A DNA stretch of 64,000 nucleotides from positions 7,327 through 71,326 of IMG/VR virus record IMGVR_UViG_3300009506_000017; one strand, given 5' to 3'. Origin of the DNA: a virus. Every line of letters begins with the position of its first letter. The stretch's first letter is position 1. Positions 37,487 through 43,375 of this stretch are shown here, one piece after another. The position numbers and the translations under genes are program-made. The notes beneath the pieces are model-generated. The model searched no databases and was not told the DNA's origin. It saw only the letters and a list, made by a program, of their open reading frames with translations.

Positions 37487-38101
37487 ATGTACAACAAACT
37501 GCGATATCGGCTCAAGGGCATCCAACCGATGATTATGGCCAACGGACGAATGGCCGACCCACTGGATCCATTCGCTAAGCTACTGCACAAATTGGCAATC
37601 AAGAAAAACAAGGTGGACAAGGACCATATGGACATGGCTCACGTTGAATGGGCTGGATGTCTGTACCACACCGATGGCGACATAAGCTTCAACGGTGTCA
37701 ACGTCATCTTCGACGAGTCCATGCGAGTCATTGTTCCGGCAGAAAATATCAAGCGACTCATCCGAGACGGTGCTGCAAAAAGCCGGGAAGGCAAGTTGGT
37801 AAAAGCGGGTGTCATCATCCCCTCTGATCCATTGTTGAACTATGGCAACGGTCCACCCAACATCAACGAACTCATGAAGCTACACCGGTATTCGTATCGG
37901 AAGCGAGTCGGGCTCAGGGGGAGCTCGGTCATGCGAACACGGCCGATTTTTCGACAATGGTCACTCGATCTGGACATTGAACACGACTCGACCATTATCG
38001 ACGCGGACAAGATCGACACCGCGCTCACGACAGCCGGTCACGTAATTGGCTTGTCTGACTGGAGACCAGACACCGGAAGATTCATTGTCGAAAAACTCTG
38101 A
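37487..38101 (+). CDS. Solo RAMP-superfamily (Cas7-like) RNA-binding protein
   Basis: N-terminal strand RLKGIQPMIM, helix IVPAENIKRLIRDGA, VMRTRPIFRQWS, C-terminal Gly loop AGHVIGLSDWRPDTGRF; GAGGAGG RBS. Confidence 0.8.
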   Translation: MYNKLRYRLKGIQPMIMANGRMADPLDPFAKLLHKLAIKKNKVDKDHMDMAHVEWAGCLYHTDGDISFNGVNVIFDESMRVIVPAENIKRLIRDGAAKSREGKLVKAGVIIPSDPLLNYGNGPPNINELMKLHRYSYRKRVGLRGSSVMRTRPIFRQWSLDLDIEHDSTIIDADKIDTALTTAGHVIGLSDWRPDTGRFIVEKL

Positions 38102-38655
38102 CCATCCGGGCGTGACAACCCTGATGGTCACCAATATCGGAGCGGAATGGACGGGACCGGAAGGCAACCCACCGGAGCCCAGCGCAGCGGAGAGCAGTGG
38201 AATGCACGGCAGCGGACCGGAGAGCAAACCAACGGAGCCCACGACTGGTGTGACAGCCCTCGTGGGCGCAACGCAACCCACGGCACCGCAAGGGAAAGGA
38301 CAGGAGCGGAGCCCAGCGCAGTGGATTGGAATGCAACGGAGTGGAGAGCAAACCAACGGAGCCCACGACTGGTGTGACATCCCTCGTGGGCGCAACGCAA
38401 GGCGAACGGATCCCAGTGCAGGGGAGAGGACTGCAACGGGCCGGGGAGCAGCGGACTGCAGCGGACTGGAGAGCAAACCAACGGAGCCCACGACTGGTGT
38501 GACAGCCCTCGTGGGCGCAACGCAATTCACTGCACCGCAAGGGAAAGGACCGGAGCGGAGCCCAGCGCAGTGGAGCGGAATGCAACGGAGCGAACCGGAG
38601 AGCAAACCAACGGAGCCCACGACTGGTGTGACAACCCTCGTGGGCGCAAAGGAGT
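38101..38655 (+). ncRNA. Putative guide-RNA array: four [SSA-NN] pentamer tracts separated by conserved hairpins
   Basis: 53-bp block GGAGAGCAAACCAACGGAGCCCACGACTGGTGTGACAnCCCTCGTGGGCGCAA at 38219, 38343, 38468 and 38597; 77 of 82 pentamers start with GGA, GCA or CCA. Confidence 0.8.
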
Positions 38656-38662
38656 AACTGCA

Positions 38663-39145
38663 ATGGACATTCACCCTGTCGACGTTGCGCAACTTCAGAA
38701 GGGCGACGTTATATCAGTTGAACGAGTCGAATCAATCACTGGAACCAGACGCGATACGCAAGAATTTGACTTTGCTCTGATGTCTCTTCGTGACTTCATA
38801 GAACGGGAGAGCGCCAAGGTTGGTGACCCACTTCTGTGCAGAACCCGAAACGGGGATCTGATCGTGATGCATGATGCGGAAGCGGTTCATTACACGCGTT
38901 CCCAGTTCTGCTGTGGAGAGCAAAAGATGTACCGCAACATGGCGAGAATGATGGCAGTAGACCCATCGAAACTGTCGGAGAACGAACTCAAGACATACGA
39001 CACCAACATGCGCAATTGTGGTGCGAAGATTGCGTCCCTGTCTGCCATGACGTCAGGCAAGCGAACGATCAGCATTCGCAGAGACGGAAACCGACTTCTC
39101 GTAGATTCTGCTGGAACAAACGATGAAGACACATCCGTACGCTGA
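38663..39145 (+). CDS. Hypothetical protein directly downstream of the array
   Basis: AAGGAG RBS at the array end, ATG 38663. Confidence 0.75.
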   Translation: MDIHPVDVAQLQKGDVISVERVESITGTRRDTQEFDFALMSLRDFIERESAKVGDPLLCRTRNGDLIVMHDAEAVHYTRSQFCCGEQKMYRNMARMMAVDPSKLSENELKTYDTNMRNCGAKIASLSAMTSGKRTISIRRDGNRLLVDSAGTNDEDTSVR

Positions 39146-39673: not shown

Positions 39674-40211
39674 AGCGGAACAGGCAACGCGTCCACCGTC
39701 TGGCGCGATACGCATCATCTGCGATGCCGTACGCCAGGAGATACGGGCCATGGGGATCCTCGAGCAACCGTTCGCGATGCAGGCGCCCCCGCCACGCGAC
39801 CTGGACGCGGAAGATGCAGTGTGCTCCACAGCGTTCGAGGGCAAGCTTCCGCAGAATCTCAGTCACCTGGACTTTTGGTCGGCGCTGAACGCCTCCATCT
39901 ACATATCGTGCCAGCTCCAGATCGGAAAGGGGATCAAACCCAGTGTGGAGTTCATTCTGAAGGCGATGTCAAGACAAGGGTTTGCCGGCGCGGAGCTCGA
40001 GCGGGCAGTCCTCGACATCATCACCAAGGTTCCATATGCCGTTGATCTAGAAGAGAAGGCATGGAGGATTCGCACCCTCGCCAAGCGGCGCAGAGCGCTC
40101 CGGATCGTGGAGCAGTTGGACGCAGTGATCCGCGTTCCTGACACCAAGTCCGATGAACTCGAACGTCTAGCGAAGCAGCTTGGAGAGGTCCTCAGTGGCG
40201 AAGACACTTGA
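39654..40211 (+). CDS. DnaB N-terminal-like helical protein (helicase partner/loader)
   Basis: DFWSALNASIY..C..QI.KG.KP pattern; sits directly before the helicase. Confidence 0.4.
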   Translation: MANLPPEAEQATRPPSGAIRIICDAVRQEIRAMGILEQPFAMQAPPPRDLDAEDAVCSTAFEGKLPQNLSHLDFWSALNASIYISCQLQIGKGIKPSVEFILKAMSRQGFAGAELERAVLDIITKVPYAVDLEEKAWRIRTLAKRRRALRIVEQLDAVIRVPDTKSDELERLAKQLGEVLSGEDT

Positions 40212-41379
40212 TCCCAACCGGTTCGCCGACGATACACGTGACATGCTCGGCGAACCCCCAGCCGGTCGTTTCGATGACGACGACGCACTCGACGAGCAGC
40301 GCGGGCTTCGTCCGGTCAAATTGGTCGAGGGCAACAAGGTGGAGATCGTTCCGCCGCTGAAGTGGATCGATGCGAACGAAGCCGCCAAGCCGCTGCCGGC
40401 TCCGAAGTGGGTGTGCCACGACTTGTACGTGTGCCCAGGCAGGCCGTGTATGCTGGCCGGATACGGATACTCAGGCAAGACGATCATGAGCCAGAGCGCC
40501 GTGCTCCAGGCAGCAGCGGGCGAGCCCATCTGGGGCCAGTTCCGGGCTGGACCAATCAAGGCGTGCCACCTCGACCATGAGCAAGGTCGCTACGCCACCC
40601 TCAGGAGGTACCAGCGTTTGGCTCATGGCCTCGAGCTCGACTTAGAGGACCTCCAGGGCAACTTCCGGGTCGCATGTCTACCGAGGGTGTACCTCACGAC
40701 CCAGGGGGTGTTCGACATCTACTGCAAGGCGCTGGAGGGCTGGGATCTGTGCATATTGGACAGCGTTCGGGCGGCCACCCCAGGAATCGATGAGAACGAC
40801 AGCGCAATCCGGCGCTACATCGACCTATTGACCGAGGTATCGGAGAAGATCGAGATCGCTTTCTGGCTGATCCATCACTTCGGCAAGCCCAAGGAGGGAG
40901 GCAAGAACGAGCAGAAGTACAGGCTTAGGGGCAACTCGGCGATATTCGATGCATGCGGCACTGTGTTCGCCCTGGCGGCTGGAGAGGTCGGGGAGCCGAT
41001 CGAGGTCAAGAACATCAAGTCCGCCGCGGAAGCCGAGGGGGGAGCCATCGACACCTTCTACACACGGATCGAGGACGTCCCCTACCGCGGGAACAGCAGC
41101 GGTGGCCTCATAGTCCGCTATCTGCCTGCGAAGCAGGTGGAGCCCACGGACACCCCTGAGAACCGCTTTGCTCAGGCCAAGCAGGTCGTGCTCGACTACA
41201 TCCGGAAGCACCCGGGATGCGGTGGACGCAATGAGATCGCAGAGCACACCGGACTGGGACGACCACGTGTGAGCCAGTCGCTGAAAGAATTGGAGAGCTC
41301 GGGCTTCATTGAGAATCGGGGTGGTTCAGCACAAACACCAAGGCTGTACGTTATGGAACGTCCGGGAGAGGATGTATAA
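40180..41379 (+). CDS. RepA-like (AAA_25) replicative helicase with C-terminal wHTH
   Basis: AGYGYSGKT Walker A, LDHE, ILDS Walker B, IHHFGK, LRGNSAI; C-terminal HTH GRNEIAEHTGLGRPRVSQSL. Confidence 0.85.
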   Translation: MERSSVAKTLDPNRFADDTRDMLGEPPAGRFDDDDALDEQRGLRPVKLVEGNKVEIVPPLKWIDANEAAKPLPAPKWVCHDLYVCPGRPCMLAGYGYSGKTIMSQSAVLQAAAGEPIWGQFRAGPIKACHLDHEQGRYATLRRYQRLAHGLELDLEDLQGNFRVACLPRVYLTTQGVFDIYCKALEGWDLCILDSVRAATPGIDENDSAIRRYIDLLTEVSEKIEIAFWLIHHFGKPKEGGKNEQKYRLRGNSAIFDACGTVFALAAGEVGEPIEVKNIKSAAEAEGGAIDTFYTRIEDVPYRGNSSGGLIVRYLPAKQVEPTDTPENRFAQAKQVVLDYIRKHPGCGGRNEIAEHTGLGRPRVSQSLKELESSGFIENRGGSAQTPRLYVMERPGEDV

Positions 41380-41406
41380 AAGTGGCACGGCGCATGCTTT
41401 CAGCAA

Positions 41407-41676
41407 GGTGGGATCGGAGGTGGGATCGGGGCCACTTTCTGCGTCGCATCAAATGTGCGTCAAGTACTGGAGATGATTGTCGAACAGGTGGGATCGGAGT
41501 CGCCGATCCCACCTCGGTGGGATCGGAGGTGGGATCGGGGTGGGATCGCGCCTGCAAAAGAGCTGCAAATCCTTCAACTGCAACCCTCTCCACGGGTGGG
41601 ATCGCCCCCCCCTCCCCCTTTTACGAAGTAAAAGGGGGGGGCGAACACCACCTGGAAGGGTGGGTCCGATCCCACC
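41407..41676. repeat. Putative replication origin: GGTGGGATCG iterons and a C/G hairpin
   Basis: Seven direct copies (41407, 41419, 41487, 41516, 41528, 41539, 41595), two inverted copies (41504, 41667); hairpin CCCCCTTTTAC-GAA-GTAAAAGGGGG at 41614-41638. Confidence 0.75.
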
Positions 41677-41719
41677 TGTCCCACCTTGAAGGAAAAAACG
41701 AGACAGGAGATTCGAAGAG

Positions 41720-43375
41720 ATGGCCTGGATATTGTATGCCGACGATGAGCAGGTCGAACTGGAGAACGTGGGACGCCTGCTCGTTCGACTTCACGATTGG
41801 AACATCTGGCACATGTCGCTCGCCCATGGGGTGATGGCGTTCTGGGCGCGAGTGGATCGTGCCAGCGTACTCGATGATCCCAAACGTCGAGCCTGGCTGC
41901 GCCGGCACATCTTTGCGCTCGAGCAGGCAGAGCCGCCGGAGCGGTTGCAATGACGAATCCCTACCGTACTCCATGGGAAAAGCCGCCTCCAGTGTGTGTG
42001 TTGCGCAACCTGGAGATCCATACACGCGTGCTCGACATCTGCCCACGATGCAACCGTGGTGGCTGCTGGACCTGCAATGGGAGAAGGGCTGTTCACACAG
42101 TGGAGCACACCCGGAGTCCGACGTGGCTGACGATGTACATCGAACCATGCGAGTTCCATGGTGGAAAGCACCACCTATTCCAGCACTGCCTGTGGTGCAA
42201 TCACTCATGGATCGTGGAGGACTCATGGTCTGGCTGATCTGGAACAAGGCGAGCAGTAAGCCGTACCTACAGCTGGCCTGGAAGACACGGGAGGAAGCAC
42301 GCAAGGAGCTCGTCGAGCTCCTAAGGCCATATCCAAAGGGCCACGAGTGGAGGCGTTGTCTCGAACTGCGAGAGCGCAGGTGGATTCCGGTGGGATTCCA
42401 ACTGGTGGGGTTCGGCAAATGATCATCGATTTGGAGAAAAAGAAGCTCGAGTTGAAGCCTAAAAATGCTCTGCCTGTGCAGACTCACCGGAGTAAGAAGA
42501 CCCGATACTGCCTACACAGGTCCGTGCTTGTCGATGACAACGCCCGCACGGTGGAGTGCTCGAAATGCGGGGCGAACCTTGATCCGTTCGCGGTTCTGTT
42601 GACCTACGCCCGCGATGGGGACCGCCTTCGTTGGATGTACCTGGAGATACAACAAGCGAATAAGACCATAGAGGAACTGAAGGCTGAGGAACGACGGGTG
42701 AAGGCACGGCTGAGAAACGCCAGAAAGAAGGGCGCATGACGAGAGCTAGCGAACCTGATTGGACTCGGATTGGACGATGGTGCAACGCTGAGCGTCGATC
42801 GATCTGGGCACGTGTCAACCAGCGTCTTGGGGAGCCTCCACACTCATTGGAGATCTGCGCGGGGCGTGAGGGTGACGACTTCTACAAGCATATCCTGTCT
42901 GACGATCCATGTTGGCCGTGGCTGCACGAGCTCGTCTCGAGAGCGATATGGTTCGCTCGAACGAACGAGGAAGGTGGGCCATGAATGAGGTCGAGCCGCG
43001 GCTGAGAAACGCCAGAAAGAAGGAAGCATGAGAGTGTTGATCGTTGCTTGTTGGCTCGTGAAGGTCGAGCAAAAGCCGCACCCGTACTTCGCTGACATGT
43101 GTCGCGCGGTGCGGACATCGTTTACCAGTGACACTTGCAGGATAGTCACTGGTGGAGCATCAGGTCATGAGCCTAACGATTCGGATTTACACGTCGTTCA
43201 CGGAGCATGGCTTGTCGACGTTGAACGGGACGAGCTCCTCACCGAGACCGACCAGAGTGCGCAGCTGCTCGATCTGGTCGATGAAGCAATGACCGAAGCC
43301 TTGGTTGATGGCGCCAAGGTGATAACTGGTGGCATGACCGCCCACCACGTAGGCGTAGACGATGAAGGAGACTGA
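41720..43375 (+). CDS. Cluster of small hypothetical genes (41720-41953, 41950-42237, 42419-42739, 42736-42984, 43028-43375)
   Basis: Coupled ORFs with RBSs; Zn ribbons (CPRC, CSKC). Confidence 0.55.
42707..43023 (+). repeat. 25-bp direct repeat CGGCTGAGAAACGCCAGAAAGAAGG
   Basis: Exact copies at 42707-42731 and 42999-43023. Confidence 0.85.

What the first reader, a model, noticed from the sequence alone, without database searches (positions are those of the whole stretch)
38101..38645. Five hairpins share a loop motif, with a fully compensated stem in the first
Seen: four repeats GCCCACGA-CTGGTGTGACAnCCC-TCGTGGGC at 38237, 38361, 38486 and 38615. A leader copy at 38101-38128, ACCATC-CGGGCGTGACAACCCT-GATGGT, has a different stem sequence but the same GTGACAnCCCT core. 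Stem covariation with a fixed loop is direct evidence for RNA structure. Five hairpins bracket four tracts, like CRISPR repeats bracketing spacers. Inference: these are processing or loading sites.
Basis: partly seen in the sequence, partly recalled or inferred. Interest (0 to 1): 0.75.

Follow-up and report, generated by a model that had tools for sequence, protein, structure and literature searches.

The report
Phage VIPR guide-RNA array, variant code
The five hairpins are real: they are the constant end-pieces of four guide RNAs written in five-base units, and together with the small Cas7-like gene just upstream they form a phage VIPR system, a CRISPR-related DNA-silencing system first described in 2026 preprints, here with an unusual constant motif.

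Summary
Four near-identical 31-nt hairpins and one leader hairpin, which has a fully replaced stem, share a GG-(Y)GUGACA(N)-CC apex.

The tracts between the hairpins run in strict 5-nt register: 72 pentamers reading G-S-A-N-N, with A at 97%. The gene directly upstream (37487-38101) is a lone Cas7/Csm3-like RAMP, 30% identical to the phage phiSUSP1 gene that sits between GGT/NN tracts.

This makes the locus a VIPR system as described in bioRxiv 10.64898/2026.04.26.720920 and .720927. It has a Vipr gene, four vrRNAs (each a pentamer guide plus a 3' hairpin tail) and a conserved accessory gene (38663-39145).

About 70 of 80 distant Vipr loci from IMG/VR show the same tract-plus-tail layout. One group has the same GUGAMA hexaloop on different stems, with G.U pairs that fit only the + strand RNA.

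The variant features are:
- A purine (A) where GGY systems need a pyrimidine, matched by a Ser in the Vipr G-loop.
- G1/G2 relaxed to G/C, with Ala in place of the His that contacts G1.
- Guides of 15-20 pentamers.
- A hairpin tail instead of a pseudoknot, plus a leader hairpin.

No target was found and expression could not be tested. The scan has reported VIPR systems on other DNA before.

The parts
37487..38101 (+). vipr: lone 204-aa Cas7-like RAMP protein (phrog_4652)
38099..38130 (+). Leader hairpin: same GGG-CGUGACAA-CCC apex on a different 8-bp stem; overlaps the vipr stop codon
   Evidence: -16.8 kcal/mol against -6.1 for shuffles. Its role as the 5' boundary of the first guide is inferred.
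38131..38236 (+). vrRNA1 guide tract: about 20 pentamers of G-S-A-N-N, ending GGAGA GCAAA CCAAC GGA
   Evidence: Pentamer lay-out is. Its NN positions match those of vrRNA4 at 25 of 32, while positions 1-2 match at only 16 of 32.
38237..38267 (+). 3' tail hairpin of vrRNA1
38268..38360 (+). vrRNA2 guide tract: 18 pentamers plus a terminal GGA
   Evidence: It differs from vrRNA4 at 7 bases, 6 of them at NN positions, and by one whole pentamer.
38361..38391 (+). 3' tail hairpin of vrRNA2
38392..38485 (+). vrRNA3 guide tract: 18 units (one of them 6 nt) with an NN sequence unlike the other three
38486..38516 (+). 3' tail hairpin of vrRNA3
38517..38614 (+). vrRNA4 guide tract: 19 pentamers plus a terminal GGA
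38615..38645 (+). 3' tail hairpin of vrRNA4, followed by AGGAG and the ATG of the next gene
38663..39145 (+). Candidate vap (Vipr accessory protein), 160 aa
   Evidence: Homologues (25-36% identity, E 1e-8 to 5e-20) lie beside vipr in at least 20 of the fetched loci. The AF2 model has pLDDT 84. Fold matches to winged-helix proteins are weak only (E 0.1-1.7). There is no Pfam, PHROG or PADLOC hit.

Best explanation
Region 37487-39145 is a phage VIPR (Viral Interference Programmable Repeat) system, and the finding is its guide-RNA array.

Inferred steps. The + strand is transcribed through vipr, the array and the accessory gene. The transcript is cut or trimmed at the hairpins into four vrRNAs of about 125 nt. 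Each vrRNA is a guide tract of 15-20 pentamers followed by a constant module: three fixed pentamers, GGA, then the 31-nt hairpin.

Steps taken from the published homologous system. One Vipr protomer binds each pentamer. It hides the constant trinucleotide, here G-S-A, and exposes the two variable bases. Those bases pair with double-stranded target DNA that is read as NNx triplets. Binding represses genes of competing mobile elements.

Role of the hairpins. They are the constant 3' tail, or handle. Their conserved GG-GUGACA-CC apex is the likely recognition point for filament start and/or end definition. The leader hairpin would set the 5' end of the first guide.

Shown here: the anatomy, the RAMP fold, homology to an experimentally characterised Vipr, the same architecture in distant relatives, and the position-specific variation. 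Not shown here: transcription, processing, binding and targets.
For: Periodicity. The 72 pentamers read G 83%, G/C 47/50%, A 97%, N, N. The period-5 signal is unique in the 64 kb.

Coding is excluded. Repeat periods are 124, 125 and 129 nt, not multiples of 3.

Variation follows the code. vrRNA2 and vrRNA4 differ at 7 bases, 6 of them at NN positions (Fisher p=0.014), plus an indel of exactly one pentamer. vrRNA1 and vrRNA4 keep 25 of 32 NN bases while positions 1-2 match at only 16 of 32; none of 20,000 permutations reached 25.

Relatives share the layout. Of 80 IMG/VR loci holding a homologue, about 70 have same-strand GGN-NN pentamer tracts next to the gene, followed by lineage-specific tails.

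The hairpin is conserved as RNA. The L002-L004 group has six tails with a GG-GUGAMA-CC hexaloop on different stems, plus a leader hairpin with the same GUGACA sequence in its loop but without the GG/CC closing pairs. Its stem changes are G-C to G.U or compensatory. The + strand folds at -20 to -27 kcal/mol, against -6 to -21 for the opposite strand.

Protein and RNA co-vary. The G-loop residue before D177 is Ser in all 6 GGA-type Viprs and in the window, and never Ser in the 62 GGY-type (Gly or Cys in most). The window also has Ala at H17, the G1 contact named in 10.64898/2026.04.26.720927.

A conserved accessory gene follows the array.

There is no self-target under skip 0-2, as reported for natural VIPR systems.
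Against: No target was found. Hits under the 1-nt-skip rule were at chance level.

The constant motif departs from GGY. In SUSP1 a GGY>GGA change was among the substitutions reported to abolish silencing, and the Y pocket excludes purines.

Half of the G2 positions are C and the G1-contacting His is lost. The array could therefore be relaxed or decaying rather than a working variant.

The guides, at 15-20 pentamers, exceed the published range of 9-16.

No promoter or terminator stands out.
Confidence: 0.88

Rival explanations
1. A decaying VIPR array. The locus descends from a VIPR system, but the guides no longer work. The constant GG has drifted to GC/CC and the Vipr has lost the His that contacts G1.
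For: Position 2 is G in 47% and C in 50% of pentamers, and position 1 is C in 14%. H17 is Ala in the window and His in 78 of the other 80 Viprs compared. No target was found.
Against: The register is kept over 72 pentamers and the indel between vrRNA2 and vrRNA4 is a whole pentamer. A3 is 97% conserved. The four tails are identical apart from one loop base. NN bases are conserved between vrRNA1 and vrRNA4 while positions 1-2 differ, which indicates selection on the guide information. The vipr frame is open, with R136, R138, D177, W178 and R179 intact. Positions 1-2 vary only between G and C, not freely.
Confidence: 0.07
2. A DNA-level element of the replication module. The purine-rich, strand-skewed repeats with palindromes would serve as an origin (iterons, or R-loop priming) for the AAA_25 plus winged-helix protein encoded at 40180-41379.
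For: The array lies 1.5 kb upstream of a RepA/helicase-like gene and among early genes. It has strong purine skew. In the window, the hairpins fold equally well on both strands.
Against: The same tract-plus-tail layout follows the RAMP gene in about 70 loci with different neighbours, always on the strand of the gene. In the L002 group, G.U pairs make the structure specific to one strand. The homologous tracts in SUSP1 are expressed RNAs that co-purify with the protein. A 5-nt period with two free bases per unit has no known role at origins (established knowledge, not tested).
Confidence: 0.02
3. A sponge RNA for a GGA-binding regulator such as CsrA/RsmA. The 38 GGA motifs in 560 nt would titrate the host protein.
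For: There are 38 GGA on the + strand against 3 on the - strand. The window mean is 14 +/- 3.9, and mononucleotide shuffles give 19 +/- 3.5.
Against: The GGA motifs sit in fixed 5-nt register and are replaced by GCA or CCA in half of the units. Relatives use GGC or GGT in the same architecture. No Rfam family matches, CsrB/Rsm included, even at E<=1. The motifs are not presented in small hairpin loops.
Confidence: 0.02

Closest known systems
VIPR systems; type II examples are Escherichia phage SUSP1 and a Pseudomonas fulva prophage (bioRxiv 10.64898/2026.04.26.720920 and 10.64898/2026.04.26.720927)
   Same: A lone Cas7-like Vipr of about 200 aa, with sequence homology to the SUSP1 gene. A small accessory gene. 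Guide RNAs built from tandem pentamers with three constant and two variable bases, each capped by an invariant structured 3' tail. Phage-borne. No self-target.
   Different: The constant motif is G-S-A rather than GGY: a purine at position 3, and G or C at position 2. H17 is Ala, and the G-loop reads GLSDWR where most GGY-type Viprs have GLGDWR. Guides have 15-20 pentamers, against 9-16. The tail is a plain 31-nt hairpin with a GUGACA hexaloop instead of a pseudoknot. An extra leader hairpin precedes the array. The array sits between vipr and the accessory gene. The accessory protein shows no sequence match to SUSP1 vap1. The preprint mentions other consensus forms (NNNGG, YNNNG, NNNNG), but its figures could not be read, so I cannot exclude that a GGA-like type is already drawn there.
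Class 1 CRISPR crRNA arrays and Cas7 backbones (types I and III)
   Different: The step is 5 nt, not 6. The guide information is non-contiguous. The 'spacers' are 93-106 nt, internally periodic and partly related to each other. There is no Cas1 in the record, no other cas genes were seen in the neighbours scanned, and there is no adaptation module.
GGA-type Vipr loci in uncultivated phages
   Same: A purine at position 3 of the pentamer. Ser in the G-loop. The best matches to the window's accessory protein (30-36% identity for L017, L026 and L007; 26% for L059/L060).
   Different: They keep a strict GG (87-97% GGA), keep H17, and have Trp at SUSP1 position 68 where the window has Val. Their tails are different. 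The window's Vipr is a long unresolved branch, not inside their clade.
CsrB/RsmZ-type GGA sponge RNAs
   Same: High GGA density on one strand.
   Different: The window has a strict 5-nt register, GCA/CCA substitutions, no loop presentation of the motifs, no covariance-model match, and an adjacent RAMP gene.

Membership tests
VIPR system | A small stand-alone RAMP (Vipr) with RRM core, G-loop and thumb | tested here: met
VIPR system | Sequence homology to an experimentally characterised Vipr | tested here: met
   30% identity and E 8.5e-23 over residues 5-202 to the phiSUSP1 ORF. That ORF is flanked by GGT/NN tracts and followed by a 146-aa gene.
VIPR system | vrRNA guide: tandem pentamers with a constant trinucleotide (GGY or a related consensus) and two hypervariable bases, 9-16 units | tested here: met
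   The pentamer register and the variability at NN positions are met. The consensus is G-S-A and the unit number is 15-20, so this is a variant form.
VIPR system | An invariant structured 3' tail after each tract | tested here: met
   There are four identical 31-nt hairpins apart from one loop base. The same hexaloop occurs on other stems in L002-L004. The published tail is a pseudoknot; this one is a simple hairpin.
VIPR system | An adjacent vap accessory gene | tested here: inconclusive
   A gene family that neighbours vipr in at least 20 loci is present. It shows no similarity to SUSP1 vap1, and only weak winged-helix-like fold matches at E 0.1-1.7.
VIPR system | Residues that hold the constant bases (SUSP1 H17, R138, D177, W178, R179) | tested here: inconclusive
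   R138, D177, W178 and R179 are kept. H17 is Ala. This fits the relaxed G1/G2, but it could also mean loss of function.
VIPR system | vrRNAs expressed as RNAs of about 100 nt that co-purify with Vipr | not testable with these tools
There are no RNA data for this uncultivated phage.
VIPR system | Guides match DNA targets by the 1-nt-skip rule (NNx) | tested here: inconclusive
   There is no self-target. Pattern scans of viral, metagenome and genome collections gave nothing or chance-level numbers without extension.
CRISPR array | Short direct repeats separated by unique spacers of similar length, with an adaptation module (Cas1/Cas2) | tested here: not met
   The tracts are 93-106 nt, periodic and mutually related. 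No Cas1 is present in the 72-kb record, while the positive controls were found. There are no PADLOC hits.
CsrB/Rsm sponge RNA | GGA motifs presented in hairpin loops; match to the known covariance models | tested here: not met
   No Rfam match at the gathering threshold or at E<=1. The GGA motifs lie in fixed pentamer register and are replaced by GCA/CCA.

The most novel reading that the evidence does not exclude
This is a working VIPR specificity class with a different constant code. An adenine at position 3 would be the main anchor, read by a Vipr whose G-loop carries Ser instead of Gly. Positions 1-2 would need only G or C, because the His that reads G1 has been replaced. The guides would be defined by a GUGACA-hexaloop hairpin that acts both as the 3' handle and, as a separate leader copy, as the 5' boundary signal. 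If so, the constant part of the VIPR code can be re-tuned through a few identifiable residues, and this tail type may use its own processing step.
Probability: 0.3. Interest if true: 0.6.

Novelty: new variant of a known kind. Interest (0 to 1): 0.45.

Why it matters
VIPR is a very recent addition to RNA-guided systems, and so far it has been characterised mainly in GGY-type examples.

This locus, together with the GGA-type relatives found here, shows natural systems with a purine at the position where the published structure sterically excludes purines. The change comes with a matching Ser in the G-loop. In this phage, G1/G2 are also relaxed, alongside loss of the His that contacts G1.

That gives concrete residue-to-base predictions for how the constant part of the code is read and how it could be re-engineered.

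It also adds a simple hairpin handle with a conserved hexaloop and a leader copy. These are easy to test as loading or processing signals.

For annotation, these T-poor arrays create long false ORFs, and public gene calls in related contigs already label them as genes.

Tried and rejected
Protein-coding repeats. Rejected. The unit lengths are 124, 125 and 129 nt, and open frames appear on both strands only because T is rare.

CsrA sponge and replication origin. Considered early and kept only as low-probability rivals.

Close relatives. Near and distant DNA searches of GenBank phages, a single-protein locus search and an exact-motif scan of IMG/VR all found no close relative of this array.

Rfam. 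No hit at the gathering threshold or at E<=1.

Global RNA fold. The fold of the whole array is not better than shuffles on either strand (z -0.9 and -0.3). Only the local hairpins stand out.

Target searches under the 1-nt-skip rule:
- Own genome: no hit above shuffled guides.
- Merged vrRNA1/2/4 core, 10 pentamers, in IMG/VR: 3 hits that do not extend.
- 13-pentamer pattern in metagenomes and genomes: 0 hits.
- 11-pentamer pattern in genomes: 31 hits scattered over unrelated phyla, best 25 of 30, consistent with chance.
- vrRNA3, 11 pentamers, in metagenomes: 0 hits.
- vrRNA3, 9 pentamers, in IMG/VR: 4 hits where about 3 are expected.

Tape-measure peptide motif. A tblastn search for this motif in GenBank phages found nothing.

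Ser-type G-loop as a predictor. L012 has the Ser, but no array was seen in the 5.5 kb held.

Promoter and terminator scan. Nothing above shuffles.

Vipr tree. The window's branch is unresolved, so no VIPR type (I-VII) could be assigned.

Full report
**Observation**

The sequence shows four 31-nt hairpins at 38237, 38361, 38486 and 38615. They are identical apart from one loop base. A fifth hairpin lies at 38099-38130.

The fifth has a different 8-bp stem; 7 of 8 positions are changed and every pair is still Watson-Crick. It keeps the apex: two or three G-C pairs closing a loop that contains GUGACA. The 13-nt core occurs five times in the 64 kb, only here, and no shuffle reached that count. Each hairpin is 7-10 kcal/mol more stable than shuffles. 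The leader stem overlaps the stop codon of the upstream gene.

**What the tracts are**

The unit is a tandem repeat of 124/125/129 nt. These lengths are not multiples of three, so the many open frames across it are a by-product of 8% T.

When each tract is laid out backwards from its hairpin, all four fall into pentamers. Over 72 pentamers, position 1 is G in 83%, position 2 is G or C (47/50%), position 3 is A in 97%, and positions 4-5 are free. The 5-nt periodicity of adenine is the strongest in the whole window and is confined to 38141-38561.

Every tract ends with the same three pentamers plus GGA, directly before the hairpin. Three of the tracts begin with the same two pentamers.

Variation follows the register:
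- Tracts 2 and 4 differ at seven bases, six of them at positions 4-5 (p=0.014), and by one whole pentamer.
- Tracts 1 and 4 share 25 of 32 bases at positions 4-5 although positions 1-2 agree at only 16 of 32. None of 20,000 permutations reached 25.

Positions 4-5 therefore carry information that is both diversified and conserved. Position 3 is fixed. Positions 1-2 need only be G or C.

**Surroundings**

The window is an IMG/VR phage contig of 72 kb. The array lies between a 204-aa gene (37487-38101, phrog_4652, no Pfam hit) and a 160-aa gene (38663-39145), in a run of + strand early genes.

**Relatives**

Distant homologues of the 204-aa protein (28-44% identity) were collected from assemblies and from IMG/VR.

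In about 70 of 80 IMG/VR loci, the gene is flanked on its own strand by tracts of strict GGN-NN pentamers. The motif is GGC in most, GGT or mixed in some, and GGA in seven loci, six of them distinct. Tracts usually have 8-25 units and are separated by constant elements of about 35 nt.

In the L002-L004 group these elements are 12-bp hairpins with a GUGACA, GUGAAA or AUGACA hexaloop closed by GG/CC, the same apex as in the window but on unrelated stems. Their stem differences are compensatory or G-C to G.U, so the + strand folds at -20 to -27 kcal/mol and the opposite strand at only -6 to -21. That is the strand-specific evidence for an RNA structure which the window's own hairpins cannot give.

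The L002 group also has a leader-type hairpin upstream of its first tract, with GUGACA in its loop on another stem.

**Identification**

A literature search on the pentamer pattern led to bioRxiv 10.64898/2026.04.26.720920. It describes VIPR systems as follows:
- A minimal RAMP (Vipr, about 20 kDa) and an accessory gene (vap).
- vrRNAs of about 100 nt made of 9-16 YNNGG repeats followed by an invariant structured 3' tail.
- The NN bases pair with double-stranded DNA read as NNx triplets.
- Binding silences competing phages and satellites.

The companion structure paper, 10.64898/2026.04.26.720927, shows:
- One protomer per pentamer.
- G1 held by H17 and D177.
- G2 held by R138 and W178.
- Y3 in a pocket that excludes purines.
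- A 3' pseudoknot cap, from which protomers resolve in the 3'-to-5' direction.

**Membership tests**

- It aligns over its full length with the phiSUSP1 gene that lies between GGT/NN tracts and precedes a 146-aa gene (E 8.5e-23).
- R136, R138, D177, W178 and R179 are conserved.
- There is no Cas1 in the record and no PADLOC hit.
- The downstream 160-aa gene belongs to a family found next to vipr in at least 20 loci. Its model shows only weak winged-helix-like matches and it is unrelated in sequence to SUSP1 vap1.

**How this copy differs**

Position 3 is a purine. The preprint lists GGY>GGA among the substitutions that abolished silencing in SUSP1.

Across 81 Viprs, the G-loop residue before D177 is Ser in all six GGA-type proteins and in the window. 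It is never Ser in the 62 GGY-type proteins, most of which have Gly or Cys there. The GGA label needs only two changes on the tree, so this rests on a few independent lineages.

The window alone combines this Ser with Ala at H17; 78 of the other 80 keep His. That matches its relaxed positions 1-2.

The other differences are:
- Guides of 15-20 pentamers.
- A plain hairpin tail.
- The leader hairpin.
- The array placed between vipr and the accessory gene.
- A 19-residue insertion in Vipr.

The window's Vipr sits on a long unresolved branch, so I could not assign a published type.

**Mechanism**

By homology, the transcript is processed into four guides, each capped by the hairpin. Vipr protomers coat the pentamers and expose the NN bases. 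The particle then binds matching DNA and represses it.

The hairpin, with the three fixed pentamers before it, is the constant module. I infer that it marks where assembly starts and where ends are defined. The leader copy would then give the first guide its 5' end. None of this is shown for this phage.

Guides 1, 2 and 4 are variants of one sequence, as expected if they cover alleles of one target. Guide 3 is distinct.

**Targets**

No self-target exists. Pattern scans under the NNx rule in viral, metagenome and genome collections gave either nothing or numbers expected by chance, with no extension beyond the seed.

The nine central pentamers of guide 3 spell G-E-L-T-P-E-A-L-A in codon register inside the tape-measure genes of two IMG/VR phages (24 of 30 and 20 of 30 NN matches). 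Four seed hits were found where about three are expected, and the motif is absent from GenBank phages. This is a lead, not a result.

**Verdict**

The thing itself is a member of the VIPR family described in 2026 preprints. The scan has reported this family on other DNA.

Its interest lies in the variant constant motif, with matching changes in the protein, and in the hairpin handle with a leader copy.

Noticed in passing
window 38057-38080: The last codons of vipr, which encode the G-loop SDWRPDTGR, resemble the constant pentamers that precede each tail hairpin (GACTGGAGA..., 80-87% over 15 nt; family D4). They lie about 40 nt before the leader hairpin. This may be chance in purine-rich codons or a trace of how the array arose.
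   Followed up: no
L125:1293-1318 (-) and L127:12096-12121 (+): The central nine pentamers of vrRNA3 spell GELTPEALA, with the skipped base at codon position 3, inside the tape-measure genes of two uncultivated phages. Overall NN matches are 24 of 30 and 20 of 30. The number of seed hits equals the chance expectation.
   Followed up: partly
L002:6082-6722 (also L003, L004); window 37961-38692 (-) and 38046-38657 (+): Pentamer arrays are poor in stop codons. Public gene calls in L002 place two 'genes' of 111 and 102 aa on the array, and the window's array carries false ORFs of 193-243 aa in several frames.
   Followed up: yes
81 Vipr proteins from loci L001-L090 (alignment made): The G-loop residue before the invariant Asp is Ser in every GGA-type Vipr, while most GGY-type ones have Gly or Cys and none has Ser. 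GGA-type proteins also have Trp at SUSP1 position 68, which the window's protein lacks.
   Followed up: partly
window 40180-41379: A 399-aa protein with an AAA_25 (RepA/DnaB-like) domain and a C-terminal winged helix-turn-helix. It is the likely replication initiator or helicase of the phage.
   Followed up: no
window 41406-41548: Two short runs of a 12-nt tandem repeat (AGGTGGGATCGG, 2 and 2.8 copies) inside ORF 41382-41834, downstream of the replication gene. Unexplained.
   Followed up: no
window 20720-24421, 27203-29359, 57020-58780: Three large genes. One is a 1233-aa protein with a Mg-chelatase (ChlI) AAA domain. One is an SNF2-family helicase. One is a 586-aa protein with Gln-rich 45-nt repeats at 57551-57706.
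   Followed up: no
L014:3690-3720: A hairpin with the same GG-GUGAAA-CC apex (stem CGATGG/CCATCG) about 600 nt downstream of a Vipr gene, but not preceded by a pentamer tract.
   Followed up: no
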